Positions 3,060-42,790 of a DNA stretch of 64,000 nucleotides are shown here, piece after piece. This DNA is from Azolla caroliniana (taxonomy: Eukaryota; Plantae; Polypodiophyta). The notes beneath the pieces were generated by a model, which was not told the DNA's origin, ran no database searches, and was given only the letters and a program-made list of their open reading frames with translations. The DNA lies in assembly GCA_043228905.1 (NCBI GenBank), contig JBHGNT010000002.1, positions 19,902,001-19,966,000 of the forward strand. The letters run 5' to 3'. Position 1 is the first letter of the stretch; every line of letters starts with the position of its first letter. The translations under genes and the position numbers were made by a program.

Positions 3060-3136
3060 CGTTTGTGTCAGCTATACATACATCATTACAACCCATGTAC
3101 AATATTGAGAGCCATCGGTGGAAACAGCCACCTAAG
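3060..3136 (-). mobile_element. 3' end of the L1-like LINE split by the copia insertion
   Basis: Joining across the TSD restores ...RPKWNYQALRWLFPPMALNIVHGL*. The same WLFPP terminal motif ends the L1 at about 33600. Confidence 0.7.
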
Positions 3137-3439
3137 TGTCGAATACAAGTGTATAATGGACGTATTCACACTATCCCTTTGTATAGCTCAAGTTTGGGCC
3201 ATTTGTGTAATTAGCATAAATGGTAGTTGCCCTAAGTTTGTCACTATATAAAGTGACCTAGTAACCTTTTTGTAAGGTTGGTTGTATTATTGTTTTCTAT
3301 TGAATAGAAAGAGTCTTTTGTGCCTCCTCTCTCTCTCTCTCTATCTCTGTGCACGATCTCAGAAACTGTCATACGCAGGTATTCAACTCCAATCGAATGC
3401 TACTTGATCTTCCGCATCGACACGGCCTTGTATCCAACA
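3137..3439 (+). repeat. Copia 5' LTR (303 bp)
   Basis: Direct repeat of 14011-14313 with no differences seen; TATA-like tatataaa at about 3245. Confidence 0.97.
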
Positions 3440-3441
3440 TT

Positions 3442-3453
3442 TGGTATCAGAGC
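3442..3453 (+). promoter_or_regulatory. Primer binding site for initiator tRNA-Met
   Basis: TGGTATCAGAGC lies 2 nt after the 5' LTR. Confidence 0.95.
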
Positions 3454-3598
3454 ATGCACAGTATTCGGTCCCTCAACCTGCTGTCGGCCGTCGTCTCAGC
3501 CTGCACAGCATTCGGTTCTTCGCTTCATCACAGCCTGCACAGTATTCGGTCTTTCGCTTCATCCTAGTCTGCAAAGCATTCGGCTTCTTGCGTCATTC
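3453..3598 (+). repeat. Degenerate short tandem repeats (about 35-45 bp spacing, x4) in the copia leader
   Basis: tgcacag(t/c)attcggt...cgcttcatc recurs about four times. Confidence 0.7.
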
Positions 3599-4113
3599 GA
3601 AGAAACAGAGAAGAAAGTAGGCAAACACAAGCTTGAATCTCGCTGCGTTAGATCATCACTCGGAGTAAGCCAGTCGGCTGTACTCTACTTCCTTGATCGT
3701 AACTGCTTGAGGTGGGCTTCCTGCACAACGACGACTTCAAGACAACAACCCCAATTCGTGCTTCATCCGGCTGATCGACACTCGGGAGGATCAGTTGGAT
3801 CCGTCTCTCTCGTCGATGCAGTCACCCGAAGCAGAATCGGTCCAGACAATCGGTTTCAATAATCGGTATTTGGCATATATATTCAGAAGCGAACCGGGCT
3901 CACTCCGACTCGGCAACATTCGGGAAGACCAGTCGGTTCTGTCCCTCAAGTTACCGGAGTCAATTCGAGCAAGTTCAACAATACATATATCCGAAGCCGA
4001 ACCGACTCGGGTTCAAATCCGACTAGAACGATATCGGGTGAGCCAACCGGCTGCACTCCAACAAGGTTCGTAGTCAACTCCGAACCGAGCTTCGTCAACC
4101 GAAACCAAATTTG

Positions 4114-5049
4114 ATGGCATCAACATCCGGCTCGTCAGAAATGAGTCTACGAAAGTTCGATGGATCGAACTTCAACTTCTGGAAGGAGCAAATGCAGGAC
4201 TATCTCATAGTCAAGGGGCAAATCGATCCCATCGAAAATGAAGAACCTCCAGAAGGATACAAACCAATTGAGTGGCAGAAGCTGGACAGGATCGTCCGCG
4301 CCACGATTCGGATGCACCTATCGGAATCGGTATACTTTACGGTGCAATCGTGTACGACAGCATTCGAACTGTGGAAAACACTGTCGGACACCTACGAAAA
4401 GAAGGTCGCTGCAACGAAGATGTTTCTGATCCGGCGCCTCTACAACTTGCGGATGAAAGAATCAGATTCGGTTCAAGCACATCTCAATGAGTACGAAAGC
4501 ATAAGCTCCCAAATCTCATCTCAGGGGACGGCAATCGAGGATGAACTCAGAGCAATGATACTCATGAGCAGTCTTCCCTCATCATGGGAAACTTTCGTCA
4601 CAACCGTGTGCAACGCGTCAACCACGACTGTTAAATACTCCGAAGTCACGAGCGCAATCCTGACCGAAGCAGCTCGGAGAAAGTCTTTCGCCAAAGATTC
4701 AACAGACGACGCTTATGTAGTACAAGGTTCGACAGACCGATCGAACATACGAGGAAGAGATTCCTCACGACAGCCGAACAATCAGCGAAGACGGAGCCAG
4801 TCACGGGATAATCGAATCTGCAACTATTGCAAGAAACCCGGACACATCAAAGCCGACTGCCGCGCACTCAAGAACAAGAACGACAAGTCTCAGAAATCAG
4901 ACAAGAAGAGTGGCCGGCATGAGGAGATCAATTACGTCAGCTTCTCAGCTGATGTGCTACCAAACGACCCGAATATACTAGATCAATCGAAAATCCAGTC
5001 GGATCAGAAGTTCTGCTCACGACTGAAGAATCGAGCACATGGCTCTTAG
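4114..5049 (+). CDS. gag: Copia Gag (zinc knuckle); frameshifted relative to pol near 4953-4990
   Basis: KFDGSNFNFWK, UBN2-like core, CNYCKKPGHIKADC knuckle. The protease motif WLLDSGASFH lies in the pol frame at about 5040-5070. Confidence 0.9.
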   Translation: MASTSGSSEMSLRKFDGSNFNFWKEQMQDYLIVKGQIDPIENEEPPEGYKPIEWQKLDRIVRATIRMHLSESVYFTVQSCTTAFELWKTLSDTYEKKVAATKMFLIRRLYNLRMKESDSVQAHLNEYESISSQISSQGTAIEDELRAMILMSSLPSSWETFVTTVCNASTTTVKYSEVTSAILTEAARRKSFAKDSTDDAYVVQGSTDRSNIRGRDSSRQPNNQRRRSQSRDNRICNYCKKPGHIKADCRALKNKNDKSQKSDKKSGRHEEINYVSFSADVLPNDPNILDQSKIQSDQKFCSRLKNRAHGS

Positions 5050-7901
5050 ATTCGGGCGCGTCATTTCACGTGACTCCTCATCGATCCCAATTTCGGCAAT
5101 ATACGATCCGTCACTCCGACTCAGTTCGAGTCGGCAACTCGCAACACTGTGACATCATTGGAATCGGCACAGTAGAGCTCAACCTTGCAGGTGGCTCTAC
5201 ACTTGTACTTCACAATGTCCGACATGTACCCGAGCTCTCAAGGCCATTGATCTCAGTCGGACAACTAGATGAAGACGGCATTCGTGCCGGTTTTTCTTCG
5301 GGAGGGTGGACACTCCACAGGGGGAACCTCCTGCTTGCTAGAGGACCCAAGATACACTCACTGTATCCGTTACATGTTACGCTCAGAGAGGGTAACCTGT
5401 TTTTGGTGGATATTCCTGTGTCATCGCTATGGCACAGAAGATTAGGACACCTCAGCAAGGCCGGCATTACGCACCTATCTAGAGCCGGATACATCCCTAA
5501 ACTCTCCTTCTCGGACCATCAATTCTGCGAACATTGCCAGTATGGCAAACAAGCAGCCGCATCACACCCGACATCAGCACCAAGAGAAACGAGACCTCTC
5601 GATTTAGTCCATTCGGACGTCTGTGGCCCAATGCCGCATCAGTCTCTCGGTGGTGCCTCTTACTTCGTCAGTTTTATTGACGATTCGACTCGAAAGGTGT
5701 GGGCTTATCCAATTCGCACCAAAGATCGTGTCTTCTCGATCTTCTCCGATTGGCTCGCTATGGTAGAAAATCAAACTGACCGAAAACGGAAATGCTTTCG
5801 GACCGACAATGGGGGAGAGTTCAAATCAGAAGAATTCGTCAAATTCTGCCGACAACGCGGCATCCGACGTGAATTTACGGCACCACACAGTCCGGAGCAA
5901 AACGGGATTGCAGAACGCATGAATCGGACAATCCAAGAACGGATAGTTTCCATGCTCCAACACTCCGGACTGTCGGATGGCTTCTGGGCAGAGGCTCTAC
6001 TCACGGCAGTACACATAATCAATATGTCGCCGAGCAGACCTCTAGGACTTCAAATTCCTCAGGAACTATGGATCGGCAGTAAGCCGAATTACGACAAGCT
6101 GAGGATCTTCGGATGCGAGGCGTACACCCTTATTCCGAAAGATGATCGCCGAAAACTTGCACCTCGGTCCAGGAAATGCATTTTCCTTGGATATGGATCA
6201 GACGGCGAAATGGGATACCGACTCTGGGACCCCGAACGCAGACAAATCGTTCGAAGTTCGGACGTTGTGTTCAACGAGTCGGCTATGAATCCATCAGTCG
6301 AAACACCGATCGAAGTCCGAAGGGTAACATTTTCCGATGTGCCGACCCTTCAAGAAGGCCCCGCTCTTAACACACGGTCAGCTTCACGGGTAGCTGAACC
6401 TTACACTACCGACTCGGACAACTCTGACTCGGCACAACAGAATAATTCGCTTTCGGACCATCCGACCTCGATACCCGATACGACCAGTCCAATCATACCT
6501 CGACGATCCGAGAGACTGTCGCAACCTCCGGAGAGGTATTCTCCTGGAATTTTCTTCACCGACGCCGGCGAACCGACGTCTTACGAAGAAGCATCGACAT
6601 CTGTCGATTCAGCCACCTGGCATCTGGCGATGGAGTCGGAAATGCACTCCATTCGGGCAAACAAGACTTGGGATCTGGTCGAATTACCTAAGAATCGACG
6701 TGCTCTTCCTTGCAAGTGGGTTTATCGACTAAAAGAGACGTCTGATTCGACCACCCCAAAGTACAAGGCCAGATTAGTTGCGAAGGGCTTCCGACAAGAA
6801 TATGGCGTCGACTTCAACGAGATTTTTTCACCAGTGGTGAAAATGACAACCCTTCGTTTTCTACTCGGCGTAGTGGCAGCCGACAACCTGGAGCTGATTC
6901 AGCTAGATGTCAAAACAGCCTTCCTCCATGGTGATCTTGAAGAGGAAATTTATATGGAGCAACCAAAAGGCTTCGTGGCAACTGGCCAAGAACATCTAGT
7001 CTGCCGACTCAGGAAGAGTCTATACGGCCTCAAACAGGCACCGCGACAATGGTACAAGAAGTTCGACGATTTCATCCAATCGATCGGCTTCTCAAAAAGC
7101 GATGAGGACCATTGTCTTTTTACCAACACAGCTCACGATGGATCACCCATCTTCCTCATCATCTACGTGGACGACATGCTAATTTCTGGACGCCACGCGG
7201 GCGAACTTGCCGATCTCGTTCGGCAATTGCGGTTGAAGTTTGCCATGAAGGACCTCGGTCCGGCACGACACATACTTGGCATGAAGATTAGTCGGCATCG
7301 CGATAAACGACATCTTTTCTTGTCTCAGACCGACTATATCGGACGTGTCTTGGAACGCTTCAACATGCAATCAGCCAAATCTGCGTCAACCCCGCTCCCC
7401 ATGAATCTTCGGCTCTCTCAGCGAGACTGCCCGACATCCGGTCCGGAGGGGGAAGATATGAAGTCGGTACCGTATGCACCGGCAGTCGGCTCCCTTATGT
7501 ACCTGATGGTCGCGACACGGCCTGATATTTCTCATGCCGTAGGAGTCGTTAGCAGATTTATGCACAATCCTGGCCGATCGCATTGGAACGCAATCAAGCA
7601 TGTGTTCAAATATCTGGCTGGCACAAAAGACCACGACATTCTTTTCGGTCCGAACTCAACCTCAGGCGTAGTCGGTTACACCGACTCGGACTTCGCCGGC
7701 TGTATAGACAGTCGGAAATCAACAACTGGATACTGCTTCAAATTCGGCAATGGAGCAATCTCGTGGAAGTCGAAACTTCAGGAGTGCACAACGACCTCAA
7801 CGACCGAAGCAGAATATGTAGCTGCGTCCGACGCTGCAAAAGAAGCTTTGTGGCTCGGCCGGCTGGCGCACACGTTTCGACAAGTCGACCATGACTCGGC
7901 C
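4983..7901 (+). CDS. pol: Copia Pol (protease, integrase, RT, N-terminal part of RNase H)
   Basis: WLLDSGAS; WHRRLGH...CEHC; VHSDVCGP/RTDNGGEF/NGIAERMNRT; QLDVKTAFLHG/YVDDML; YTDSDFAG/TEAEY. Start approximate. Confidence 0.95.
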
Positions 7902-8330
7902 TGTCAGGAATAGTACTAAAACAGAGATGGAATTAGTACTAAGAAGAGTAGTACTATTAGTACTAAGAGGACGGGACTGCGTAAGATTCCCGAGAGAGAG
8001 GAAGTGAGAAGAGGAGAGAGAGAGGGAAATAGGATGATGACAGCAGCTCTTATATTATATGAAAGATAAGTACAAATCGACTAAGAGGCTTAAGACTGGT
8101 GTTGAACCAATTTGGTTCAACATAATGCTTAGTGCCTTCTTTTATAGTGTTCTCAGGAATAATCCTGAAGCTTCTAGAATGTTCCAGAGAAATCTGGAAT
8201 ATACATTACTTTCTTATAATAAAACATAAATGAAAATAATATTCTATGAATTACAATAGATGGTGAGATGGTTAAGAGCTCGACCCATATACCATAAGGT
8301 CATGGGTTCGAGTCTTGCCATCTCATGACA
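7902..8330 (-). repeat. Gypsy 3' LTR (429 bp)
   Basis: Identical by eye to 13138-13566 and adjacent to the PPT. Confidence 0.97.
8258..8325 (+). other. tRNA-like / Pol III A-box plus B-box cassette inside the gypsy LTR U3, antisense to the element (second copy 13494-13561)
   Basis: TGGTGAGATGGTTAAGAGC at 8261 and GGTTCGAGTC at 8305 are 44 nt apart, as in tRNA genes. No proper acceptor stem. Confidence 0.55.
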
Positions 8331-8343
8331 CTATCTCCCCCTT
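8331..8343 (-). promoter_or_regulatory. Gypsy polypurine tract
   Basis: Minus strand reads AAGGGGGAGATAG directly before the 3' LTR. Confidence 0.9.
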
Positions 8344-11300
8344 AAAGACGACGAGTGGAACGAGTCAGCGCTACTTGCGGACCGGGTTTGTCCGGATACT
8401 TTCGGTGGAAATCAGCAAGAAGATCTTGGGCATTGGCAACATTCTCGACGGGTTCCCAAGTACGTTCGCTCGGACTATAACCGAGCCAATCGACCAAGTA
8501 ATAGAGTTTGTTGCGAACAAGTTTGGAATCGAGGATGGCAGCAACTTCATACTCCGGGCCGGCGTCCAACTCCAGTGGGGGCGGCGGTGGTGTCACACGA
8601 TCGGGAATGGTGTTTGCTTTATAAGGTTCAAGAAGAGAACAATGGAAAACCGGATGTATCTGAAGCTGCGGAGGGAGATCAAGGCGGAAGGTGACATCAT
8701 TAATCTTCCCCGTAATACGGAAAGGACCGAGTCGTCGATAATCCAACTTGTCGCACGGTCGAGTAGTCTTGATGTGACGACGTAAGAGCCATACTCGATC
8801 TCCGATGGCAAAAGAGGAGGGAATCCGATGACGATCCGCATAAGTCTTCTGTGTGTGTTGAGCATGACGAAGGTGAGTAGAGAGATCCATCTGGATCTTG
8901 CGTAGCCTCTCCAAATGATCCTCGGCACGAGGGTTGGTAGGTAGCTCCGGAGTGTCGATCACCGACCAGCGAGGATGGAAACCGGTATAAGCGAAAAATG
9001 GGGAGACCCGAGTCGAGGAGTGAATAGCATTATTATACGCAAACTCCGCAAAGTGGAGAATCTCGGCCCAATCGTCCTGTTGATAACTCAGGAAACACCG
9101 GAGATATTGCTCCAGCGTTTGGTTTGTTCGTTCCGCCTGTCCGTCGGTTTGAGGATGGTAGCCGGAGGAGAGGTTGCAGGAGACCTTGAGCATCTTGAAG
9201 AGATGCTGCCAAAATTTGGAGACAAATTGCGGGCCTCGGTCACTGATAATACTGTCTGGGAGGCCATGATGCCGAAAAACCTCACGCATAACAAGAGCGG
9301 CGGTTTCCTCGCTAGTGATGGCTTTAGTACATGGCACAAAATGTGCCATCTTCGTATATCGATCGACGACGGTTAGGATAGCATCGAACCCTTTCGAGAC
9401 CGGCAGATCTGTGATAAAATCAAGACAAATAGACTGCCATGGCTTACTTGGAATTGGTAAAGGTTCCAACAAGCCATATGGATGGTGTCGTGGCATCTTT
9501 GCTCGGCAGCAAGCATCACAGGTCCGAACGTAGTCGTCGACAAAACGGCGCATGTGGGGCCACCAAAAAGATCGCTGCACTAGCTCCAACGTCTTAGTAC
9601 TACCGAAATGTCCCGCCGTATGGGTGTCGTGACAATGTTGGACAATTTGAAGGCGACAAGAGCAATCGGGGACATATACGCGCTTTTTAAAGAATAACAA
9701 ACCATCATGATATTCGAATTGTCGGTAGTCAATACCTGGTTGTTGAGACTGAGAACAGGATGCCCGAGAAGTATCAATGTGCGCCAGGATGTCTTGAGCA
9801 AAACTATCCGTCTTCAAGGTTGCACGTATGTCATCGGTAATCCGTGAATCCATCGGGGTGTGAAAAATCCGCGTCGTGTGCAATCGTGTTGGTCCCAAGA
9901 TTACTTGCTTTTGATTATCAAATGTTGCTTCACCAGGACGAGGTGCAAGATATGAACGTCGTGATAGTGCATCTGCTTTTCCTTGCTGCTTCCCCGGTCG
10001 ATATGTGATTTTGAAGTCGAAACGCGTGAGGAATTGCGCCCACCGAGCTTGCCGTCGATTTAGTACGCGAGCGTTCTGAAAATAAGCAAGATTTTTATGA
10101 TCGCTGAAGACAATGACCTGATGTGGAGAGCCCTCTAAGAAATGCCGCCATTGTACAAATGAATCCACGATGGCTAATAACTCCTTGTCATGTATTTCGT
10201 AGTTGATTTCTGTGACATCGAATTTGCGCGAATGGAAAGCCACCGGATGCAACTCTTCTTTATCACCTTGTTGAGAAAGGATGCTACCGAGGGCGAAATC
10301 TGATGCGTCGGCCTCCATGATGAATGGTTTGCTTGTATCCACATGAGCTAGAATCGGTGCTGATGTAAAGGCTTTCTTAAGATGCCGAAAAGCCATATCT
10401 GCTTCAATGGACCAAAGAAATGCTTGGCCCTTCTTCGTAAGTTGTGTGAGAGGTAAAATAATCTTCGAGTAATCCTGTATAAACTTACGGTAGAAGTTAG
10501 CAAAACCTAGAAAACATTGTACATCTCGTACCGACCGTGGAATTTGCCACTCTAGTACAGTTTGGATCTTAGCTGGATCCATGGCGATGCCCTTTGAGGA
10601 GATGACGTAGCCTAGAAATTCCACTTGCTTGCAGTCAAAGCTACATTTTTCTAGCTTGGCATAAAGACCATTCTCGCGGAGTCGCTTTAGTACTAATAGT
10701 ACATGAGAGTCGTGCTCTTCCTGGGTCTTCGAATAAATCAACAGATCATCCAGATAAATGATCAAACAGATATCCAAGAGGTCTCTGAATATATCATTTG
10801 CCATGTGTTGGAAGACTGCGGGTGCATTGGTTAGGCCAAACGGCATAACAGTATACTCAAAATGCCCATACCGCGTGCGAAAAGCGGTCTTCCACTCATC
10901 TCCCGGTCGGATCCGCACGAGATTATACGCTCCGCGTAGGTCGATTTTAGTAAAAAACTTGGCACCATTAACTCGCTCTAAAAGACTTGATATAAGAGGA
11001 AGTGCATACCTATTCCGGATGGTGACTTTATTTAATCCGCGGTAATCAACGACAAGACGAAGTGAGCCATCTTTCTTCTTGACAAAGAAGATGGGTGCAC
11101 CGGCCGGAGATTTCGAATGACGGATGAACCCGCTTGCCAAGTTCTCCTCTATGTAGGCTCGAAGGACTTCTAACTCGGTGGGTGACAGGTTGTAAATTGG
11201 TCCCCATGGTGGCTCGGTTCCTGGTTGTAAATCGATGGGACAGTCATAGGGACGGTGATGAGGAAGGGTACCGGCTTTTACCTTGTCAAATACATCGGCA

Positions 11301-11923
11301 TAAGGATGATATTTTGCCGGAAGTTGTACTGAGGAGTCCTTCTTAATAGTGCTGGAAGGATGTACTGATATGGAAAATAGGAACATTGCCTCCTTGGGTC
11401 CTTCTTCGCGTAGTTGATGGAGTGAAATGGTCGAAACTCGGCGAGTTGATTCTTGGGGTGGTCGATATCGGACTTCTCTTGTTCTCCAATCTATGGCTGG
11501 ATTATGTAACTCAAGCCAAGGTAATCCTAGGACAATGGGATGCTCTGGACTACTAATTATATTAAATGATATTATACACACAAAACTACCTAGGACAACT
11601 TGAATGGGTTCTGATTCTTCTACAATATTCCCGGAAGCAATGGGACGACCATCAATGACCACTACAGATGCGGGACAAGGAAGTTTTCTTAAGGATATCT
11701 GAGAAGCTTGGGCAAAATTTCGATCCATGAAACAGGAATTAGCTCCGGAATCTAAAAGTGCTAGGACGGGTACTGGGGGAGTACTTTTAGTACTAACAAT
11801 GACTTGGGCTAGGAACACATTGCTAACTTGCTTGGAAGGAATGGAACCACTAATGGGCTGTACAGATCTAGGGCTGCTGTCCAACCAAATGGCTCCTATT
11901 TTGGCTGGACTCAATCGTTTAAC
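8342..11923 (-). CDS. pol: Gypsy Pol (protease, RT, RNase H, integrase, chromodomain), entered by a predicted -1 frameshift
   Basis: LLDSGANSCF; YLDDLL; EADASDFALG; HDTHTAGH...CDAC; LDFITDLP/ISDRGPQF; GPF; EYEVAAILDS...YLVDWLGY...TWEP. Confidence 0.97.
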   Translation of the reverse strand, partial: VKRLSPAKIGAIWLDSSPRSVQPISGSIPSKQVSNVFLAQVIVSTKSTPPVPVLALLDSGANSCFMDRNFAQASQISLRKLPCPASVVVIDGRPIASGNIVEESEPIQVVLGSFVCIISFNIISSPEHPIVLGLPWLELHNPAIDWRTREVRYRPPQESTRRVSTISLHQLREEGPKEAMFLFSISVHPSSTIKKDSSVQLPAKYHPYADVFDKVKAGTLPHHRPYDCPIDLQPGTEPPWGPIYNLSPTELEVLRAYIEENLASGFIRHSKSPAGAPIFFVKKKDGSLRLVVDYRGLNKVTIRNRYALPLISSLLERVNGAKFFTKIDLRGAYNLVRIRPGDEWKTAFRTRYGHFEYTVMPFGLTNAPAVFQHMANDIFRDLLDICLIIYLDDLLIYSKTQEEHDSHVLLVLKRLRENGLYAKLEKCSFDCKQVEFLGYVISSKGIAMDPAKIQTVLEWQIPRSVRDVQCFLGFANFYRKFIQDYSKIILPLTQLTKKGQAFLWSIEADMAFRHLKKAFTSAPILAHVDTSKPFIMEADASDFALGSILSQQGDKEELHPVAFHSRKFDVTEINYEIHDKELLAIVDSFVQWRHFLEGSPHQVIVFSDHKNLAYFQNARVLNRRQARWAQFLTRFDFKITYRPGKQQGKADALSRRSYLAPRPGEATFDNQKQVILGPTRLHTTRIFHTPMDSRITDDIRATLKTDSFAQDILAHIDTSRASCSQSQQPGIDYRQFEYHDGLLFFKKRVYVPDCSCRLQIVQHCHDTHTAGHFGSTKTLELVQRSFWWPHMRRFVDDYVRTCDACCRAKMPRHHPYGLLEPLPIPSKPWQSICLDFITDLPVSKGFDAILTVVDRYTKMAHFVPCTKAITSEETAALVMREVFRHHGLPDSIISDRGPQFVSKFWQHLFKMLKVSCNLSSGYHPQTDGQAERTNQTLEQYLRCFLSYQQDDWAEILHFAEFAYNNAIHSSTRVSPFFAYTGFHPRWSVIDTPELPTNPRAEDHLERLRKIQMDLSTHLRHAQHTQKTYADRHRIPSSFAIGDRVWLLRRHIKTTRPCDKLDYRRLGPFRITGKINDVTFRLDLPPQLQIHPVFHCSLLEPYKANTIPDRVTPPPPPLELDAGPEYEVAAILDSKLVRNKLYYLVDWLGYSPSERTWEPVENVANAQDLLADFHRKYPDKPGPQVALTRSTRRL
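11843..11923 (-). promoter_or_regulatory. Predicted -1 ribosomal frameshift signal (G_UUA_AAC plus H-type pseudoknot)
   Basis: The heptamer at 11923-11917 lies in the very short gag/pol overlap. A 6-nt spacer precedes the stem GUCCAGCCAAA/UUUGGUUGGAC, and loop GGAGCCA can pair with downstream UGGUUCC. Confidence 0.75.
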
Positions 11924-13068
11924 TCTTCATCTAATTGACTAAGGATTTCAAATTTATTTGAGATACTTGGGCTATTAGTACTATGAATACTATCTGACAC
12001 TCTATTAGTACTATTACTACTATCAGACACTCCGAAGGGAAGAATTGACTCAGGTTTAGTACAGGCGACAATTTGATTTACCTGTCTTCTTGGCCTATGG
12101 GGACAATTGATGGCGATATGTCCTGGTCCACCGCAATAAAGGCATAATCGATTGGCACGTCGTCGTTGCTTTTCTTCTTCCGATAACGGGCCGCGTCGAC
12201 GCATGGTATCGATCTCCATCGGTGTCGAAGTATTTGCTTGAGGTATGTCTCGTGCAAACGGTTTAGCCGCGACTGCGGCGTAAGTGGGCTCTGGCCTAGA
12301 GCGTGGTATCTGTAATTGACGTTCTGAACGCCGTTCAAAAAGGCGGTTGTCACATCGAACTGCCCGACTGATTGCCTCCGTAAGAGACTTTGGTTCTTCG
12401 GGGAAAGTTAGAAGTAGATCTTTGACATCGTTTCGCAAGCCATAGCGAAACTGCTCCATTAGTGCTTGATCATCCCAGGGTATATCTGAAGCAAGTAGGC
12501 GGAAATCCGCCGCGTAGGCAGAGGCTGGACGATCGCCTTGACGCAATCGCCGGATCTTGTTGATCGCCGTCCTGATGCTGTCGGTGTCTCCAAAGCAGGC
12601 TTTAAACTCACCAATAAAATCTTCAAAGTTATTAAGCAAGGGCGATTGTTTTTCTAGAAGCGGAGCGAACCATGCCAAGGCTGAGCCGCTAAGTAGTGTG
12701 CCTATTAGGCCGACTCGAGATGCATCAGTGGGATATCGGGAAGGATGCATCTGGATGACTAAGCGTACCTGATTAAGGAATCCCCGAAATTGCGAACGCG
12801 TTCCATCAAATTTCACAGGAAGTCCAATCTTGGGCTCTTTATGAAATCCTTGGGGACTGGATCCTTGTTGTTGCAACGCTGCTTCGAGTTGTTGTACCCG
12901 TAACGCTAACTCCCCATGTTGTTGTTGCGTTTGTTGTTTTTCTAGAGCGATTTGTTGCAGATCCCCTATCAGCCGTTGGTTTTCTTGTTCCAAGGCAACA
13001 AACTTTTCTTTTAGGCACTGTAGCTCGGAGAAAACGGATTGGTATTCTTGGGCGCTAACAGTAGCCAT
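11911..13068 (-). CDS. gag: Gypsy Gag (coiled coil, capsid, CCHC knuckle), PEG10/sushi-like
   Basis: EPKIGLPVKFDGTR...; LRQGDRPASAYAADF; TPMEID; CLYCGGPGHIAINC. Confidence 0.95.
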   Translation of the reverse strand: MATVSAQEYQSVFSELQCLKEKFVALEQENQRLIGDLQQIALEKQQTQQQHGELALRVQQLEAALQQQGSSPQGFHKEPKIGLPVKFDGTRSQFRGFLNQVRLVIQMHPSRYPTDASRVGLIGTLLSGSALAWFAPLLEKQSPLLNNFEDFIGEFKACFGDTDSIRTAINKIRRLRQGDRPASAYAADFRLLASDIPWDDQALMEQFRYGLRNDVKDLLLTFPEEPKSLTEAISRAVRCDNRLFERRSERQLQIPRSRPEPTYAAVAAKPFARDIPQANTSTPMEIDTMRRRGPLSEEEKQRRRANRLCLYCGGPGHIAINCPHRPRRQVNQIVACTKPESILPFGVSDSSNSTNRVSDSIHSTNSPSISNKFEILSQLDEELND

Positions 13069-13123
13069 AGTATAGGGGAAAGGGTAGGAAGATGAGGGAG
13101 AGTGACAAGTAGGCTAGAGGAAA

Positions 13124-13135
13124 AAATTGGTTCAA
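13124..13135 (-). promoter_or_regulatory. Non-tRNA primer binding site, complementary to the predicted 5' end of the element's own RNA
   Basis: Minus TTGAACCAATTT lies 2 nt after the 5' LTR and is the perfect complement of minus AAATTGGTTCAA at 13349-13338. Confidence 0.75.
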
Positions 13136-13137
13136 AC

Positions 13138-13566
13138 TGTCAGGAATAGTACTAAAACAGAGATGGAATTAGTACTAAGAAGAGTAGTACTATTAGTACT
13201 AAGAGGACGGGACTGCGTAAGATTCCCGAGAGAGAGGAAGTGAGAAGAGGAGAGAGAGAGGGAAATAGGATGATGACAGCAGCTCTTATATTATATGAAA
13301 GATAAGTACAAATCGACTAAGAGGCTTAAGACTGGTGTTGAACCAATTTGGTTCAACATAATGCTTAGTGCCTTCTTTTATAGTGTTCTCAGGAATAATC
13401 CTGAAGCTTCTAGAATGTTCCAGAGAAATCTGGAATATACATTACTTTCTTATAATAAAACATAAATGAAAATAATATTCTATGAATTACAATAGATGGT
13501 GAGATGGTTAAGAGCTCGACCCATATACCATAAGGTCATGGGTTCGAGTCTTGCCATCTCATGACA
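13138..13566 (-). repeat. Gypsy 5' LTR (429 bp), with TATAAAAG at 13382-13375
   Basis: Identical by eye to 7902-8330 and upstream of gag. Confidence 0.97.
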
Positions 13567-13571
13567 CGGCC

Positions 13572-13817
13572 CCAGTTGTCTATAGCGACAGTCAAGGTGT
13601 TGTTGCCTTGTCGAAAAATCCGGTTCACCACAACGCCTCCAAACATATCGACGTTCGGTATCACTTCGTTCGGGACTACGTCATTTCAGGGAAAATCGGT
13701 CTAGAGAAAATATCCACAACCGACAATGTCGCAGATGGAATGACCAAGTGTCTTTCGGCAGACCGCTTTCGGTCCCTTCGGCATCAGATGGGCGTAACGA
13801 CAAACCAGTCCGGTTAG
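13572..13817 (+). CDS. pol: Copia RNase H C-terminal part, resuming after the gypsy insertion
   Basis: PVVYSDSQ...KNPVHH...KHIDVRYHFVRD...NVADGMTK continues ...VDHDSA across the TSD. Confidence 0.93.
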   Translation, partial: PVVYSDSQGVVALSKNPVHHNASKHIDVRYHFVRDYVISGKIGLEKISTTDNVADGMTKCLSADRFRSLRHQMGVTTNQSG

Positions 13818-14003
13818 AGCCGGACACAGCGCAAGATGGTTTCAGACAACCGACATCAGTTCCTTAATGATCGGCTTCAACTCTTCCGACCCGACCAGTC
13901 CGGTCTTCTGCCTTCGGATCCTGCCGACTCGAACAAAACTGATATGTCCGAGAACCTAGGTTTATACCTGTAATCTTAGATAACCCATGTATACGCCCAT
14001 TAC

Positions 14004-14313
14004 GGGGGAGTGTCGAATACAAGTGTATAATGGACGTATTCACACTATCCCTTTGTATAGCTCAAGTTTGGGCCATTTGTGTAATTAGCATAAATGGTAG
14101 TTGCCCTAAGTTTGTCACTATATAAAGTGACCTAGTAACCTTTTTGTAAGGTTGGTTGTATTATTGTTTTCTATTGAATAGAAAGAGTCTTTTGTGCCTC
14201 CTCTCTCTCTCTCTCTATCTCTGTGCACGATCTCAGAAACTGTCATACGCAGGTATTCAACTCCAATCGAATGCTACTTGATCTTCCGCATCGACACGGC
14301 CTTGTATCCAACA
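14004..14313 (+). repeat. Copia PPT (GGGGGAG, 14004-14010) and 3' LTR (14011-14313)
   Basis: Direct repeat of 3137-3439. Confidence 0.97.
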
Positions 14314-23832: not shown

Positions 23833-26800
23833 ATGTTGAGGTTCTCTAGCGTCTTCATCTCTTCTTTGCCATCGCTCTGCCATCGCCCTCCTTCCATGAT
23901 CTCTGCCCGACCTTCCATGAGACCATTTTATATGCAACCACCATCATCATCATCATCATCTTCTTCTTCTTCCTCTTCTTTAAATATTTGTAGAGCTTCT
24001 TCTTCTTCCTTCTCCTCTTCCTCTTCCTCGTCTTCTTCTTCTTCTTCTTCTTCTGCACAAAATCATCGTGAAAGGCTTCTTCAACACTTGCTTCTCAGAG
24101 AAGATCAGCTTACTCTGCTGTTAGACCTTCAGCGTGAGGCACAGCAAGGCAGGTTAGTTTTCTTTGTTTCCTTCTTCTTATTATTTCTCTTTTTAGAACG
24201 TCCGTTAATAGGTAAAACAAAACAAACAAACAAAATTTATTTCTCGTGCGTGCATTAATTAGAAAGACAGAAAAATATGCGTTTTTCTCTCTCTTCTCTG
24301 CAAATTATGGTGATTCAATGCAGTGATTTGAGTGATTTAGCAACAGAACATTCTATATGCTCCTCCAAGAGTGATGGTGGCATGCTGGGATGGGTTCAGA
24401 GGGGCCAGATGGTAAGTATAGCTACTCGAAAAGAAACTATATTAAAACTGCATTATATTGGTTAAAACGAACAACAAAGGTTATGGGCATACACGACATT
24501 ATACAATTAAAGGAGTCAATTCATCATGGAGTCTGTGATGCTAGAGCGAAGGATTTGCCATTGGATATCTGAATCGATGATGAATTTCTTTCTTTCTTTG
24601 ATAATCCTAGGTACCAGAGTTTGAAGAAGCTGCATTTTCAGCTCCTCTGAATAAGATTGTCCGTGTGAAAACTAAATTTGGATGGCACCTCGTTCAAGCC
24701 CTTGCTGAGAGGTAAACTTCTTTTTCCATTAAATCAGCCATTTTTCTTCTTCTTTTGTTTTGATGGATAACCATACACACAAAGTTTTTTATGGGGATGA
24801 TGAATTCAACATTTCCTTAACCTAGATCCCGAGCATAGTGTCGACATAAAATTGCCCGAAACCAGCATTTAACAATTTGCTTTAGAAGAAAGAAAGCTAT
24901 GCTTGTTCCTTGCACCATCTTATTGTATGTATGTAGATGTATATTGACCTTCACTTGCATTTGGGCACTATGTGTATGTTGTGATGCTAGTGCTCTGATA
25001 ACTTTCTACATGTAGTTGTCAACAATGTATGCTCCGATTTGTTGTAAATTTGTATCTACCTAAAATACTCATAGTTCCGATCATTAAAACCTAGTTATTT
25101 ATAAATTCAATGAGGTGGAATCACCAGTGGGGGGTAGAATAATCCTCTCTACCTTATGGACAAGACATGATTGATGCAACCTCTTACCATATATATTAGA
25201 TAAGACTTAGTGATATAGGTCTTCTTTGCCCAAACTACTGCAATGAATACCAGTTAAATTTCAAGTACTGCCTTTCAGAAGAAGGGGTCCTTATCAACAT
25301 CCATGAATAGTGACCTTTAGGAGACACATGTGGCAGTGCCATCAGAATTTAACTCTTGCAGCTCCTCATTCTTTGAATACAATGACTTGGTTAAACCAGA
25401 TCCCAAGGGCTTGGTAACAATGCAACCAACAATCAGATAGTTATGAATGTTTATCTATGTAGGAATATGAAAAGTCTATGATGTTTGTGCTATATGCAGA
25501 TAATTTCATTACTCATAATGACATGAGAGGAGAGCCCATGAAGATCTTCATATCCAATCACTATTGCTACTAAACAGTGGCAAATATTGGTTTGTTTGTC
25601 AGTAGTACAATGACACATATAGAGGTCAATGCTAAGTTATGTGTCAGAAGTATATAGAAACAAAAATTGGGCTGTACAAGAAGTTTGTCAGTAGCACGGT
25701 GTGTTGAACTTAAGAAGAATGGTTAATACAATATGGAAATGTCTGGAAAATGATTAGAAGGAGAGCAAATAAGCAGATTAGTGGATTGTGGATGAATGAT
25801 GAGGAACCCAGGGAACAAGAGAAAGAGAACAAGGCAATGCCATAAGATAAATGATTTAGCAAACTATAAGTTAACATCCAAAACTGAAGGAACTATTAGA
25901 CTTCATCATTGGTGGTATCGAGATGTTTGGCCAGTTCCCAACTAGCTTCTGATACAGGGTAGCATTCCATCAGACTAGCTATGATAGTTTCCACTCTAGT
26001 TGGTGACTAGTGATCAAGGAATACAGTGTGGAACCAAACGACCAGTTCCCAAGTAGCTTCTGATACAGGGTAGTATTCCGTCAGACTAGATATAATAGTT
26101 TCCACTCTAGTTGGTGAATAGTGATCAAGGAATACAGTGCGGAGCCAAACAGGCATAGGGAGCTGCATCTATCATAGCATATGCCATTCACATGTTGATC
26201 ATATCCCATTGATGATCACTGCAAACTGTTGTCTTGTGTATTCCCATTTTTTTAGTTCAATGCTTGTGCATACATGTATCTGTTTGATTTATTGATTAGG
26301 AAAGTTTTTAGTATAGAAACTCCTTTAAAATTGGAGAGAGGACCAAAGCATCAACCGCAATGTTTTTCTTGATTAATGATCCAAGTATCAGTGTTGAAGA
26401 CTACAATCTATGTTTAGTTTCTCTATAAACTGGCAATTTATCATCTAATTGTCTTTGCCCTCTGCTTGAATCTTAAGTGAACAACACGGCCAGGCTAGAT
26501 AAAGCCATAGAGATGATCGTAGGGACATTTGTCCAATTCATTGGGAAAGAAGTCTCATGCTACTTGGAGGCTTACAAAGCCAAGATGCTTATGAGAGACA
26601 TACTAGAGGCAAGGTGGTTAAGCATCTTTGCAAGGGTCGTAACGCCAAGCCTCCCACGAGACAAAGAAGAACTTGAATGATTGGGTCGAGTCACCTGGAA
26701 AGGCGATGAGCTCCTCTACAGCATTTCAAGAGTTCAAGAAGTGGCAGTGAACTATATATCGAAGAACCAGCCAGCATTACTATACGGGGAAAGATGCATC

Positions 26801-29800
26801 ATGTTCTTTTGAGTTCTTTAACACAATCAGTGTAATCCCCTCACACATTAATACAATCATTTCAAGAGTTCAAGAAGTGGCAGTGAACTATATATCGAAG
26901 AACCAGCCAGCATTACTATACGGGGAAAGATGCATCATGTTCTTTTGAGTTCTTTAACACAATCAGTGTAATCCCCTCACACATTAATACAATCATTTCA
27001 AGAGTTCAAGAAGTGGCAGTGAACTATATATCGAAGAACCAGCCAGCATTACTATACGGGGAAAGATGCATCATGTTCTTTTGAGTTCTTTAACACAATC
27101 AGTGTAATCCCCTCACACATTAATACAATCATTTCAAGAGTTCAAGAAGTGGCAGTGAACTATATATCGAAGAACCAGCCAGCATTACTATACGGGGAAA
27201 GATGCATCATGTTCTTTTGAGTTCTTTAACACAATCAGTGTAATCCCCTCACACATTAATACAATCATTTCAAGAGTTCAAGAAGTGGCAGTGAACTATA
27301 TATCGAAGAACCAGCCAGCATTACTATACGGGGAAAGATGCATCATGTTCTTTTGAGTTCTTTAACACAATCAGTGTAATCCCCTCACACATTAATACAA
27401 TCATTTCAAGAGTTCAAGAAGTGGCAGTGAACTATATATCGAAGAACCAGCCAGCATTACTATACGGGGAAAGATGCATCATGTTCTTTTGAGTTCTTTA
27501 ACACAATCAGTGTAATCCCCTCACACATTAATACGTGAACTGAACCTCGAAACTTGAATGCTGCAAGCAGCAAATAACATTTCCTATATGCCCATATGGA
27601 GCTTAAGCATACGTAGTACATCCAGGGTGGCCCATGGCATTTGCTTAAGCCCATCATGGAGTGCCATATCGATCACTTTGAGAAATAACGTACATCTTCT
27701 ATCCCCCTTGACAATGGCGCAAAGGGTTAAATGTGATCCAAGGTAGAAAAATCATCAGTATCCTTCCTATCTCCAGGTGCTCTTTGCCATTCTTTCCATG
27801 CTAATAAGATCCTCCAATAATGCTTAGAAAATCAAATTAGAGTCTTGGTCCTCTAGATTCCGAATCTTCTATAATTGTTAACTTTTTTAAATCAATCTTA
27901 CAATTAGGATCTAATTCTTTCACAATGATGAGAAATAGTTTTTGACTTAATTTTCTTTTCTTATCAGAATGTGTTAGGATTTCTCTCCTGGCAATCTTCA
28001 AATTTGTATGAATTGACGAATCCATCTAAAGTTGAATTCTAATGGAAATTATCTATTATGTAGCAAACACTGCAATCGCTTCATTAAATACTGACCGAAC
28101 TTGAGAAGTTCACTGTGCTGGATAGATCTATTGTGAGGGAGAAGAATTTTTGTCTTGTTCTAAAGCTCAACCTGGATAAGTTTTGGCAACACAGGGAATC
28201 GAGCTTCTTAAAGGAGGTTCAGCCAGACGAACTTCATTCTCGTTTACAGGATCCTAGCTTTCTCTCAGAGTCTCAGCTTATTGATGTTCGTGAACCAGAT
28301 GAAATGTAAGTAATGAAACCAAACCAAACACATATTATGATTTTAATTTTCAAATGTATTCCAATTTTGAATGGTTAAATGAAAACTGTCATGTACAAAT
28401 TCATGCATGATCCCTTATTTAATTGATCAAGTATAAATCAGCATGGTCAAGTACATAATCTCCTTGAAAAGTGCTGAATACTGTTAGTTTTTTTCTTGAG
28501 TTTCTTATCTTCCTAGCTCAGTTTACCCGTACATTCTTGGGACATTCTTAAAGATAGATTTTATTATCTTATTGGGATGTCAAGTATTACCTATGGGACC
28601 AAGTGAAATATTTTCATGTAACAAATGTGAAGTTGATAAATGACTCTGGTCAAGAACTTTACTGAGTTTGAAAGTTGCAATAAAGTTGCACAATGTGACA
28701 GCAATTTGTGCAGGAAACAGGCCAGAGTTGAATATGTGGCACAAGCAAGCTCAGATTTAATCGAAAGTCCAAAGTCTGGTCAAGAACTCTACTGAGTTTG
28801 AAAATTGCAATAAAGATTGCACAATGTGGCAGAAATTTGTGCAATAAACAGGCCAGAGTTGAATATCTGGCACAAGCAATCGCAGATTTAATTGAAGCTC
28901 AGCTTTGCATTTGTCATACTCAGGCTTGCAAACAAGGACAAACTTGTTTGCATCCAAAGTCCAAAGTCCAAAGTGGGAAATCTTCAAACACATTTCACAA
29001 TATATGACGTTACAGACAAATGATAAGATTACCAAATTTGAGTTAGATTTACCAATACTGCCATTGAAGCAAGAGATACTAGTTTGTACTGTACATTTTT
29101 AGGTCTGCCCAAACTTCATTAGGTGGTGTACCGTGTAACTATTTGTCTTTGTGAAAAATAGGAATTTCTATTTGCCTTTGTTTTCATGTTTGATATGCTT
29201 CCACAATTATTTCAGTCATTGAATGATTCATTCCTACTACCTTTATCTATCTTCTACTCTGTCACAATTTTTGTTTATTCCTTCCGAAATCCCTCTTCTG
29301 CCCACCCATTCTATTCTTCTCTTCCTCTTATTTCTACCTTTCTCTCTCCTCATCCATCATGTAATGATTTCTGATGTGTGCCCCTCTTCTCAATCATTCA
29401 TGTGGGACGAAATGCTTCTATCTTTCTTTAATTTCTCTCATACAGTTCCTTAGGGATGGCATGTGAAGTTATTATTTCTCCTTACTGTGACATTTCGACA
29501 ATAAATCTAAATGGGCTTGTTTACAGATCAACTGCAGCAATTGCAGGATTTAAACCTTATCCATTAAGCCAGTTCAGTCAATGGGGTCCACAAATTTCAA
29601 TGGAGCTTGATACCTCTAAAGATACATATGTACTGGTAATGTAGTCTCTATACTTTCTAGCTTAAGATTGTAAAAATGCTTAAAACCTGATCAAAATCAA
29701 ACCCAGCCTTCAATATGATGATGTTTGTATAGGTGTGATGTCTCTCTAGTTCCAGCCAAAGCTAACAGAAACAGGGGTTAAATGTGAACAAATTAAACCT

Positions 29801-39500: not shown

Positions 39501-40787
39501 AAGGGCAGCCTGTCTGGCTTGCTCATGTGCTTGCATGGATTTTTATGAAGTTTGGATATTTCTTTGCTTCTGAGCAAACTGTTATATCAGCTATTTACTA
39601 TCAAATTATAATACAAAATTTCAAATATTTTAACAGAGCTCCCAGATGGATCTTTGCATTTCTCCTTTGGGATTCCAAATGAAACGAACGGTCTTGCTTT
39701 CACAAATAAGGTGGTATCTCCATGCAGGCCACCTTGTCAATTTGTTCGTAAGTCACCAATTCCCATCATGGCAACAACGCAAAGGAAAAAGCAAGATGTG
39801 ATCTCTATAAAAGATGGTGCTCTAAGTTCTATTCCAGGATCTATGGTGTTATTGAGGCCGAAGTCATGTTTTGTCAAAATATCACCTATCCCCAAGCCAA
39901 CCATTATCAAGAGGCAGATCTTGTCTCTTGATCAGAAAATCACTAATGATGAGGAGAGTGTTGTGTTAGGTACACTAAATGGAGATAAAACAAAGAGATG
40001 GCCATCGAGATTCATTAAAAGATCTCCGATTCCATTGTTTCATGGGAGACCTACCAAACCGGAGGAGAATATTGCTGATTCTTTGGTGGAATTATTTGGA
40101 AATGGAGATAAACCAATGAGATGGCCATCAAGGTTTGTTAAGAGTTCCCCGATTCCACCTGTTCGTGAAAGGTCTCACAAAGTAGAGGTGCAGGCTGCTG
40201 ATTCTACCGGAGTACTTGTAAATGTTGATAAACCAAGTAGGTGGCCATCAAAATTCGCTAAGAAATCACCAATTCCATCCCTTCATGGAAGCACTAGCAA
40301 TCTAGAAGAGAAGGCTGTCAATTCTACAATTGATGTACGTAGAAAGACCACTGCTTTTCAGTCTTCCAGACCAAAGTCAAAATTTGCACGCAGATCACCT
40401 ATTGTGAAGATGCCTCACCATAATGCCCATGCTGTTTCAAAGATGGAAATATTAGGAGATATTAATTCTGTTCAGTCTTCCAGACCTAAATCAGTGTTCA
40501 TAAAGAAATCACCCATTGTAAAGGTGCATCATCATGCGCCTCCAGAGGCTGATGTTGAAGACGAATCACACACAAAACTATCAAAAGGGAAAACTCCTGA
40601 TGACGCATATGCTAATAAAGTCAGTGGAGTTTCTAAACAGTCGTCTGATTGCCTAGATGATAACGTTGTTGATCTAGATAAGTGCAAACTTCCTGAACTG
40701 AAGAGTTTGGCTAAAACAAGAGGTCTGAAAGGGTATTCAAAACTTAAAAAAGCAGAACTTTTGGCCCTTTTAAAAGGTCAGCTATAA
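36557..40787 (+). CDS. Rho termination factor N-terminal domain (RHON1-like) protein, probably plastid-targeted. Exons 36557-36887 and 39637-40787
   Basis: Splicing gives ...DILSIK/ELPDGSLHFSFG. C-terminal Rho_N is DLDKCKLPELKSLAKTRGLKGYSKLKKAELLALL. Exon 1 resembles a transit peptide. The start codon and possible extra small exons are uncertain. Confidence 0.8.
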
Positions 40788-41780: not shown

Positions 41781-42790
41781 AAGTCTTAGAAACAAATACT
41801 TAATTCGTTTGTCATATAATATTCTAAGAGATAGTCCAATTTAAGGCTTGGATACATCAATTGAGTCATACATTGCCACAAGCCAGATGGAATGCAGGAA
41901 AGGGGTTTTATTCAACTTTATCAATACGATAGTATCCTTAGGGATTTAAATTCTGCATAAGCAATGCACATATTTTGTGATAAGCAATTTAAGCCTTAGA
42001 AACAAATACTTAATTCCTTTCTCATATAATATTCTAAGAGATAGTTCAATTTAAGGCTTGGATACATCGACTGAGTCATACGTTGCCACAAGCCAAATGG
42101 AATGCAGAAAAGGGGTTTTATTCAACTTTATCAATACGAAAGTATGCTTAGGAATTTAAATTCTGCAAAAGCAATGCACATATTTTGTGATAAGCAATTT
42201 AAGTCTAAGAAATAAATACTTAATTCCATTCTCATATAATATTCTAAGAGGTAGTCCAATTAAAGGCTTGGATACATTGATTGAGTTATATGTTGCCACA
42301 AGCTAGATGGAATGCAGAAAAGGGGTTCTATTCAACTTTATCACTGCCATAGTATGCTTAGGGATTTAAATTCCGCATAAGCAATGCACATATTTTGTGA
42401 TAAGCAATTTAAGACTTCTTCTCTTGAGTCATACATAGGTCAAATGAGATAGTATGCAGAAAAGGAATTTTATTCCACTTTAGCATTAGTGCCTTACGGC
42501 CAACAAGGAGTGCGGGTCAGTACACCGCTCGAATACGGAGCATGTCCACTCTCGATAGCAATGCCACCCCCCCCACCCCCCCAACAAGTGGTTGGCGGTC
42601 ACCCGCAAGTGGGTGGTATACCGACTGCAGACGTCACACCTAGGTCTGTAGTGTGCTCAACGGTGCCACACGAGTTCAAGTGGTTAGCCCCTAACGCCGT
42701 GGGTCCGGCTGCAACGCTTAGGTGCGAAAGCCTTAGTGGTTTTAGATTTTGCATAAGCAATGTACGTACATTGTGATACTGATAAGCATA
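41781..42790 (+). repeat. 210-bp tandem repeat x3 plus a degenerate fourth unit containing an insertion
   Basis: Units start at 41781, 41991, 42201 and 42411. Confidence 0.9.
42504..42746 (-). mobile_element. Putative non-autonomous Helitron-like element with a CTTG end
   Basis: Minus strand reads A|TCTAAAACC...GCGG-loop-CCGC-ACTCCTTG|T. The terminal 65 bp or so is shared with 50582-50645. Confidence 0.5.

What the first reader, a model, noticed from the sequence alone, without database searches (positions are those of the whole stretch)
13124..13382. tRNA-independent self-priming architecture (Tf1-type) with a palindromic start site
Seen: there is no TGG-type PBS. The 12 nt starting 2 nt after the 5' LTR (TTGAACCAATTT) are the perfect complement of AAATTGGTTCAA, which begins 33 nt downstream of the first base of TATAAAAG, about where transcription should start. 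That sequence is also one arm of a perfect 11-bp palindrome (13336-13358) whose other arm is a PBS copy in U3. Established: S. pombe Tf1 primes reverse transcription with the cleaved first 11 nt of its own RNA. Inference: the same mechanism operates here. The palindrome would hide the 3'-LTR copy of the primer in a hairpin, so that only the RNA 5' end can anneal to the PBS.
Basis: partly seen in the sequence, partly recalled or inferred. Interest (0 to 1): 0.72.

Follow-up and report, generated by a model that had tools for sequence, protein, structure and literature searches.

The report
Self-priming retrotransposon with primer-guarding hairpin
This plant jumping gene likely starts copying itself with the first 12 bases of its own RNA instead of a host tRNA, as already predicted for its clade, and it carries a small hairpin that likely hides spare copies of that primer, because related families without the hairpin have left several times more misprimed, inverted copies in the same genome.

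Summary
Observation confirmed. The site belongs to an intact, very young Tcn1-like chromovirus (Ty3/gypsy; identical 429-bp LTRs, about 570 sister junctions). Self-priming itself is not new: it was predicted for 83% of plant Tcn1 elements (PMC6317226), and this scan noted it before on other DNA. Support found here: six different primer/PBS pairs co-vary in this genome, each starting at C|A 32-33 nt from the TATA box; bases just after PBS position 12 are hypervariable (16 of 42 young copies), marking the primer's 5' end at 13349; and dozens of inverted copies join U3+primer to antisense U5 exactly at the PBS, many with 5-bp target duplications, so primer:PBS pairing happened before integration. 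The palindrome is optional, not essential: a second family has a different 12-bp arm, two active families have none. Across six families, weaker hairpins go with more inverted copies (about 3-7% against 12-21%; rho 0.77-0.94). This supports a guard role, likely on single-stranded cDNA as much as on RNA, but rests on six related families. No RNA data mapped the start site. I found no paper describing the arm or the inverted copies; key Tf1 papers were not readable.

The parts
13138..13566 (-). 5' LTR, 429 bp, TG...CA
   Evidence: identical to the 3' LTR
7902..8330 (-). 3' LTR, 429 bp; carries the same palindrome at 8100-8122
13124..13135 (-). primer-binding site, 12 nt, after a 2-nt spacer (13136-13137)
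   Evidence: 574 exact LTR/PBS junctions in G000
13119..13123 (-). hypervariable PBS edge, likely the mark of reverse transcriptase running off the primer's 5' end
   Evidence: 16 of 42 young copies differ here with 13 alleles; no change in the next 28 positions
13338..13349 (-). predicted self-primer (first 12 nt of R); predicted transcription start 13349
   Evidence: exact complement of the PBS; same C|A start and TATA spacing in other families
13350..13358 (-). U3 anti-primer arm; with the primer it forms the palindrome 13336-13358 (10-bp hairpin, 3-nt loop)
13331..13337 (-). conserved bases right after the primer (predicted RNase H cut between 13338 and 13337)
   Evidence: TATA-spacer-motif pattern: 5945 matches against 1 in the reversed control
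13375..13382 (-). TATA box
   Evidence: spacing 32-33 nt kept in 12 of 12 variants folded
11911..13068 (-). gag (capsid, CCHC knuckle)
8342..11926 (-). pol (protease, RT, RNase H, integrase, SH3, chromodomain), overlapping gag in another frame
8331..8343 (-). polypurine tract
   Evidence: sequence
13567..13571 (.). target-site duplication, repeated at 7897-7901
13541..13550 (+). tRNA box B-like motif, antisense, near the start of U3 (side observation)

Best explanation
This is an intact Tcn1-like chromovirus whose RNA likely starts at 13349 and likely primes its own reverse transcription with its first 12 nt, while the U3 arm of the palindrome likely folds over every spare copy of that primer and so lowers mispriming. 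Steps: (1) inferred: Pol II starts at the A of a C|A 33 nt from the TATA box; (2) shown in sequence and predicted by folding: the first 12 nt pair with the PBS just beyond the LTR; (3) inferred from Tf1: RNase H cuts after nt 12 and RT extends; (4) inferred from copy variation: plus-strand synthesis copies the primer to its 5' end and adds extra bases, some templated by U3 and some not, which become fixed just after the PBS; (5) shown as genomic products: the PBS sometimes paired with the primer sequence in an LTR instead, giving U3+primer joined to antisense U5, and such molecules were integrated with target duplications; (6) inferred: wherever U3 precedes the primer in a single strand (3' LTR RNA, plus strong-stop DNA, upstream-started RNA) the arm hides it, whereas the true 5' end has no U3 and stays free. 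Odds: self-priming with this primer about 0.9; a guard role for the arm about 0.55.
For: Covariation: six distinct primer/PBS pairs of 11-12 bp in G000, including a compensatory change in a sister family (L165) and a wholly different pair in 17 of 18 family-B loci; 11 distant loci of 89 fetched from metagenome and viral collections show 10-11 bp pairs in the same position (most others too short). Folding from the predicted start gives primer:PBS pairing probability 0.95 here and 0.91-0.95 in five other families; starting upstream of the arm lowers it to 0.34-0.36; the hairpin holds at 0.96 in the 3' LTR context. PBS edge: 16 of 42 young copies differ at +15 to +19, none at +20 to +47; 5 ordinary copies continue the PBS with U3-complementary bases, up to 9 nt. 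Inverted copies: 24 of 29 pattern hits; of 22 examined, 8 have exact and 3 near-exact 5-bp target duplications; also 4 of 10 in family D and 6 of 10 in family E. Share of inverted junctions: strong arm A 20 of 574, B 17 of 305; weak arm A2 4 of 61, C 12 of 100; no arm E 29 of 198, D 21 of 100; rho 0.77 (p 0.051) to 0.94 (p 0.008) against hairpin energy. Tf1 cDNA is reported to keep a single-stranded PBS tail and non-templated bases (PMC11042837, passages).
Against: The start site, the cut and the RNA primer were not observed. The arm is absent from active families D and E and from several distant relatives, so it is dispensable. The trend rests on six related families; counts for A2, C and D were read by eye from the first listed matches, anchors differ between families, the D pattern left out junctions with T after the PBS (worst case 21 of 150), C junctions were not fetched, and by the first-100 lists the trend is only borderline (p 0.051). 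In A2 the inner arm did not follow the primer change. The third duplex of the Tf1 'pretzel' did not appear in the folds. 11 of 22 inverted family-A copies gave no target duplication within the stretch fetched.
Confidence: 0.75

Rival explanations
1. Self-priming is real but the arm is a neutral by-product: template switches at the primer occasionally write an anti-primer copy into U3, and it does nothing.
For: Arm missing in D, E and in some distant relatives; strand switching at this exact site is frequent; D and E are the closest relatives of the arm-bearing family A in the RT tree.
Against: Family-B variants keep the stem while loop and inner pairs change; arms of different sequence occur in A, B, F and a distant clade (0-7 of 200 shuffles reach A, B1, B2, F); inverted copies are rarer where the arm is strong.
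Confidence: 0.22
2. The arm works at the level of transcription: it disables priming by RNAs that start upstream or read through, or it is a core-promoter protein site, and the lower share of inverted copies is incidental.
For: RNAs starting upstream of the arm lose primer:PBS pairing in the fold (0.34-0.36); the arm lies between TATA and start site.
Against: Arms differ wholly in sequence between families, unlike a protein site; this does not by itself explain the trend in inverted copies, though it can coexist with the best explanation.
Confidence: 0.15
3. The inverted copies are later chromosomal inversions at a 12-bp microhomology, or assembly errors, and say nothing about reverse transcription.
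For: The junction lies inside the 12-bp homology, so its exact point cannot be read; several loci are complex.
Against: Exact 5-bp target duplications flank 18 of 42 examined across three families, including one with two U3 ends (L126); second junctions differ from copy to copy; the alternative junction through the U3 arm was found 0 times; one contig of an unrelated run shows the same joint (depth 3.5, a weak hint).
Confidence: 0.06
4. A host tRNA or tRNA fragment primes at this PBS, and the LTR match is secondary.
For: The primer resembles a T-loop: a tRNA-Met T-arm segment shares 8 nt and pairs at -11.9 against -12.7 kcal/mol for the self-primer; only 73 distinct tRNA sequences of 13 anticodon types were tested.
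Against: No TGG; the best matches are inside the T or D arm, not at a 3' end or anticodon half; six different PBSs each match their own LTR at the same position.
Confidence: 0.03

Closest known systems
Tf1/Tf2 of Schizosaccharomyces pombe and the Tf1/sushi group (PMC10085805, PMC4600332, PMC7175516; passages)
   Same: Chromovirus; no tRNA PBS; first 11-12 nt of the RNA complementary to a PBS just beyond the 5' LTR.
   Different: 12-nt primer; only part of the three-duplex 'pretzel' appears in the folds; a U3 arm against the primer is not mentioned in the passages read.
Plant Tcn1 clade of mosses and club-mosses (PMC6317226 passages and Additional file 5; PMC2864245 passages)
   Same: Chromodomain, 5-bp TSD, overlapping gag/pol, size in range (5665 bp; reported 5466-9444), self-priming predicted in 83% of 1500 elements by complementarity alone.
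   Different: Those passages give no covariation, start-site footprint, hairpin arm or inverted products; for SM-Tcn1 no priming signal was found.
Single-stranded PBS tails of Tf1 cDNA (PMC11042837, passages)
   Same: About half of Tf1 cDNA keeps a single-stranded PBS, RT adds non-templated bases, and the tail anneals to complementary sites.
   Different: There the tail directs integrase-independent insertion; here it appears to anneal to the element's own primer sequence and the product is inserted with ordinary target duplications. The word 'inverted' does not occur in that paper's main text.
Helenus TRIMs with tRNA-like LTR sequence (PMC10886601, abstract start and passages)
   Same: A tRNA box B-like motif in the LTR.
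   Different: Helenus is non-autonomous and tRNA-primed; here the motif is antisense and degenerate in autonomous self-priming elements (side observation).

Membership tests
Ty3/gypsy chromovirus | PR-RT-RH-INT order with C-terminal chromodomain, LTRs, PPT, TSD | tested here: met
Plant Tcn1 clade | 5-bp TSD, overlapping gag and pol, chromodomain with aromatic cage | tested here: met
   cage residues Y, W, Y read by eye from the sequence printed (cage positions recalled)
Plant Tcn1 clade | RT phylogeny groups with reference Tcn1 elements | not tested
   no named reference sequences were held; nearest Atlas clusters are fungal and chordate, which fits but does not place it
Plant Tcn1 clade | host is a moss or club-moss | not tested
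   host not named; inferred only from the element type
Tf1-type self-priming | PBS complementary to an LTR segment, not to a tRNA 3' end | tested here: met
   (tRNA set partial)
Tf1-type self-priming | the complementary segment is the 5' end of the RNA | tested here: inconclusive
   indirect support from TATA spacing, C|A start and PBS-edge variation; not mapped on RNA
Tf1-type self-priming | three-duplex 'pretzel' around the PBS | tested here: inconclusive
   central duplex and a U5-side duplex appear, a duplex on the leader side does not
Tf1-type self-priming | RNase H cleavage releases the primer | not testable with these tools
   needs biochemistry

The most novel reading that the evidence does not exclude
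Self-priming retrotransposons pay a specific price, pairing of the PBS with spare copies of their own primer, which yields integrated inverted dead-end copies at up to a fifth of junctions, and several lineages have independently evolved a U3 hairpin that hides those copies; the genome thus records both the primer's 5' end and the error rate, family by family.
Probability: 0.5. Interest if true: 0.68.

Novelty: new variant of a known kind. Interest (0 to 1): 0.52.

Why it matters
Self-priming has been shown experimentally in fission yeast and only predicted in plants. The PBS-edge variation and the integrated inverted copies are physical traces of the mechanism that can be read from any assembly, and they predict the start site to the base. 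If the arm is a guard, it answers a plain design question, how an element whose primer occurs in both LTRs avoids using the wrong copy, and it adds a source of inverted LTR repeats to plant genomes that LTR annotation tools would likely miss.

Tried and rejected
No RNA holder listed; the four runs laid were contigs and cannot show a start. Rfam gave nothing above gathering score in 13000-13700; ARAGORN found no tRNA in the window and called the antisense U3 motif only at a much lowered threshold in 2 of 6 LTRs. A head-to-tail junction through the U3 arm: 0 matches. The predicted PBS of family F: 0 matches, so F has an arm but no tested PBS and is left out of the trend. L193 (54% pol identity) gave no convincing primer/PBS pair. 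Simple T-run slippage was rejected for the PBS edge because alleles include G, C and A substitutions. An age bias was checked and not seen for D (3 of the 5 inverted copies with a measurable 3' LTR had 100% U3 identity; ordinary copies 82-100%) but is not excluded for the others. No standard slippery heptamer was found at the gag/pol overlap. Rows dropped: of 120 loci, L056 (duplicate of L011) and L029 (lacked the exact anchor; it also differed at the PBS edge). Papers not held: PMC1369541, PMC1563812, PMC109269, PMC231564, PMC6388632; Additional files 1 and 3 of PMC6317226 were too large to read and may list these primers.

Full report
What is there. The finding sits at the 5' end of a 5665-bp Ty3/gypsy element on the - strand (13566-7902) with two identical 429-bp LTRs and a 5-bp target duplication. 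It has gag and an overlapping pol with protease, RT, RNase H, integrase, SH3 and chromodomain. It is nested in a copia element (3135-14313) with identical 305-bp LTRs and an ordinary TGG-type PBS. The exact LTR/PBS junction occurs 574 times in G000.

Observation. Confirmed at every coordinate and beyond chance (4 of 20000 and 0 of 1000 shuffles). The hairpin is 10 bp with a 3-nt loop; 9 nt of it lie in U3.

Prior knowledge. Neumann et al. 2019 (PMC6317226; passages and Additional file 5 read) predicted self-priming for 83% of 1500 plant Tcn1 elements from a match of at least 10 bp. Novikova et al. 2010 (PMC2864245; passages) found no priming signal for SM-Tcn1. The Tf1 mechanism (first 11 nt, RNase H cut, three-duplex structure) was read in passages of PMC10085805, PMC4600332 and PMC7175516; the original papers were not held. 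So the core inference is expected for an element of this anatomy. The scan's own notes hold similar readings on other genomes and none for this sequence.

Test 1, covariation. Of 20 chromodomain elements fetched, 18 belong to a second family (52% pol identity) and 17 of these have a different 11-bp primer/PBS pair; one sister element (L165) has a compensatory change on both sides. A TATA-spacer-motif pattern gave 5945 matches against 1 in the control and exposed further families. Of 20 LTRs fetched from that list, 5 showed a full 11-12 bp pair and 2 a 7-bp partial pair; the other 13 gave none, as expected for solo or 3' LTRs. In all six distinct pairs the match begins at an A after a C, 32-33 nt from the TATA box. 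Among 89 loci from metagenome and viral collections, 11 distant ones show 10-11 bp pairs in the same place, and 7 more show 8 bp with a bulged extension. Folding from the predicted start pairs primer and PBS with probability 0.91-0.95 in six families.

Test 2, tRNA. Against 73 distinct tRNA sequences of 13 anticodon types (a partial set) the longest shared run is 8 nt, inside the T or D arm. The best tRNA duplex is close in energy (-11.9 against -12.7 kcal/mol) but lies at no known priming end.

Test 3, the PBS edge. In 42 copies of the youngest subfamily, 16 differ at positions +15 to +19 after the LTR with 13 alleles, one change is placed at +12, and none falls at +20 to +47. 29 of the 42 were picked by similarity, which works against variation, and +1 to +11 were fixed by the anchor. 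Five ordinary copies continue the PBS with the complement of U3 for 4-9 nt (picked by a pattern that demands 4). Tf1 RT is reported to add non-templated bases and to leave a single-stranded PBS tail (PMC11042837, passages). I infer that plus-strand synthesis ends at PBS nt 12 because the primer ends there, which puts the RNA 5' end at 13349.

Test 4, inverted copies. A pattern for U3+primer joined to antisense U5 gave 29 hits, 24 of them true inversions. Typical layout: U3, primer, 30-210 nt of antisense U5/R, a variable jump into the internal region, then a 3' LTR. Of 22 examined, 8 have exact and 3 near-exact 5-bp target duplications; L126 is one LTR plus PBS plus antisense U3 with a duplication around both U3 ends. 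The same form occurs in families B (17 of 17 checked, two pairs being duplicates), D and E (10 of 10 each, with duplications in 4 and 6). These molecules were therefore formed before integration by primer:PBS pairing. The simplest route is the PBS tail of plus-strand DNA annealing to the primer sequence of an LTR; priming by the 3' RNA copy is not excluded.

Test 5, the arm. Predicted hairpins over the primer are strong in A, B and F (different sequences; 0-7 of 200 shuffles for A, B1, B2, F in RNA mode), weak in A2, A3, B3-by-this-measure and C (20-79 of 200), and absent in D and E. D and E are close relatives of A in an RT tree and recently active, so the arm is optional. Inverted shares: A 20 of 574 (2 of the first 100 listed), B 17 of 305 (7 of the first 100), A2 4 of 61, C 12 of 100, D 21 of 100 (worst case 21 of 150), E 29 of 198 (16 of the first 100). 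Pooled copy counts differ strongly (Fisher p about 1e-4 to 1e-6), but copies are not the independent unit; across six families rho is 0.77 (p 0.051) or 0.94 (p 0.008) depending on the counts used. Counts for A2, C and D and the first-100 counts were read by eye from listings.

Mechanism. Shown: complementarity, covariation, edge variation, inverted integrated products, optional arm. Inferred: start site, RNase H cut, which strand misanneals, and the guard role.

Novelty. Searches (listings, plus the passages named above) turned up no description of a U3 anti-primer arm or of inverted PBS-junction copies in self-priming elements. The original Tf1 and sushi papers and two supplements of PMC6317226 could not be read and may bear on this. 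The element is a member-like instance of a known kind; the arm and the error products are the new part.

Verdict. Real, largely as described, core mechanism already predicted, with a plausible new accessory feature and unusually direct genomic evidence. Interest 0.52.

Noticed in passing
window 13495-13562 (+); L165, L169, L340, L341, L356, L359, L364 near the LTR start: An antisense tRNA box B-like motif lies within about 60 nt of the LTR start in families A, A2, D and E, with a variant in B; in the window it sits in a long hairpin. Possibly a tRNA-derived Pol III or TFIIIC site kept in autonomous LTRs.
   Followed up: partly
window 3135-14313 (+): The host of the nested insertion is a copia element with identical 305-bp LTRs, a 5-bp target duplication and an ordinary TGG-type PBS; both insertions are very recent.
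   Followed up: partly
window U5 of both LTRs and about 11780-12020: The hexamer AGTACT occurs four times in U5 and four times around the gag/pol junction (14 of the window's 27 lie in this element); a packaging, dimerisation or recoding signal is possible.
   Followed up: no
window 11911-11926: gag and pol overlap by 16 nt in different frames without a standard slippery heptamer.
   Followed up: partly
L047, L051, L053, L067, L086, L088, L093: 7 of 118 junctions have extra A in the PBS that the LTR primer, where readable, does not share; likely slippage near the template end.
   Followed up: no
L186 (G000:C21:5380100-5389100): A compound, 99-100% identical array: inverted end, LTR, partial internal region, LTR, full element, all within one target duplication.
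   Followed up: partly
window 26586-27701, 41781-42410: Tandem arrays of 136-nt and 210-nt units with near-identical copies.
   Followed up: no
window 39612-40787 (+): A 391-aa open frame with internal repeats and a C-terminal Rho_N-like domain.
   Followed up: no
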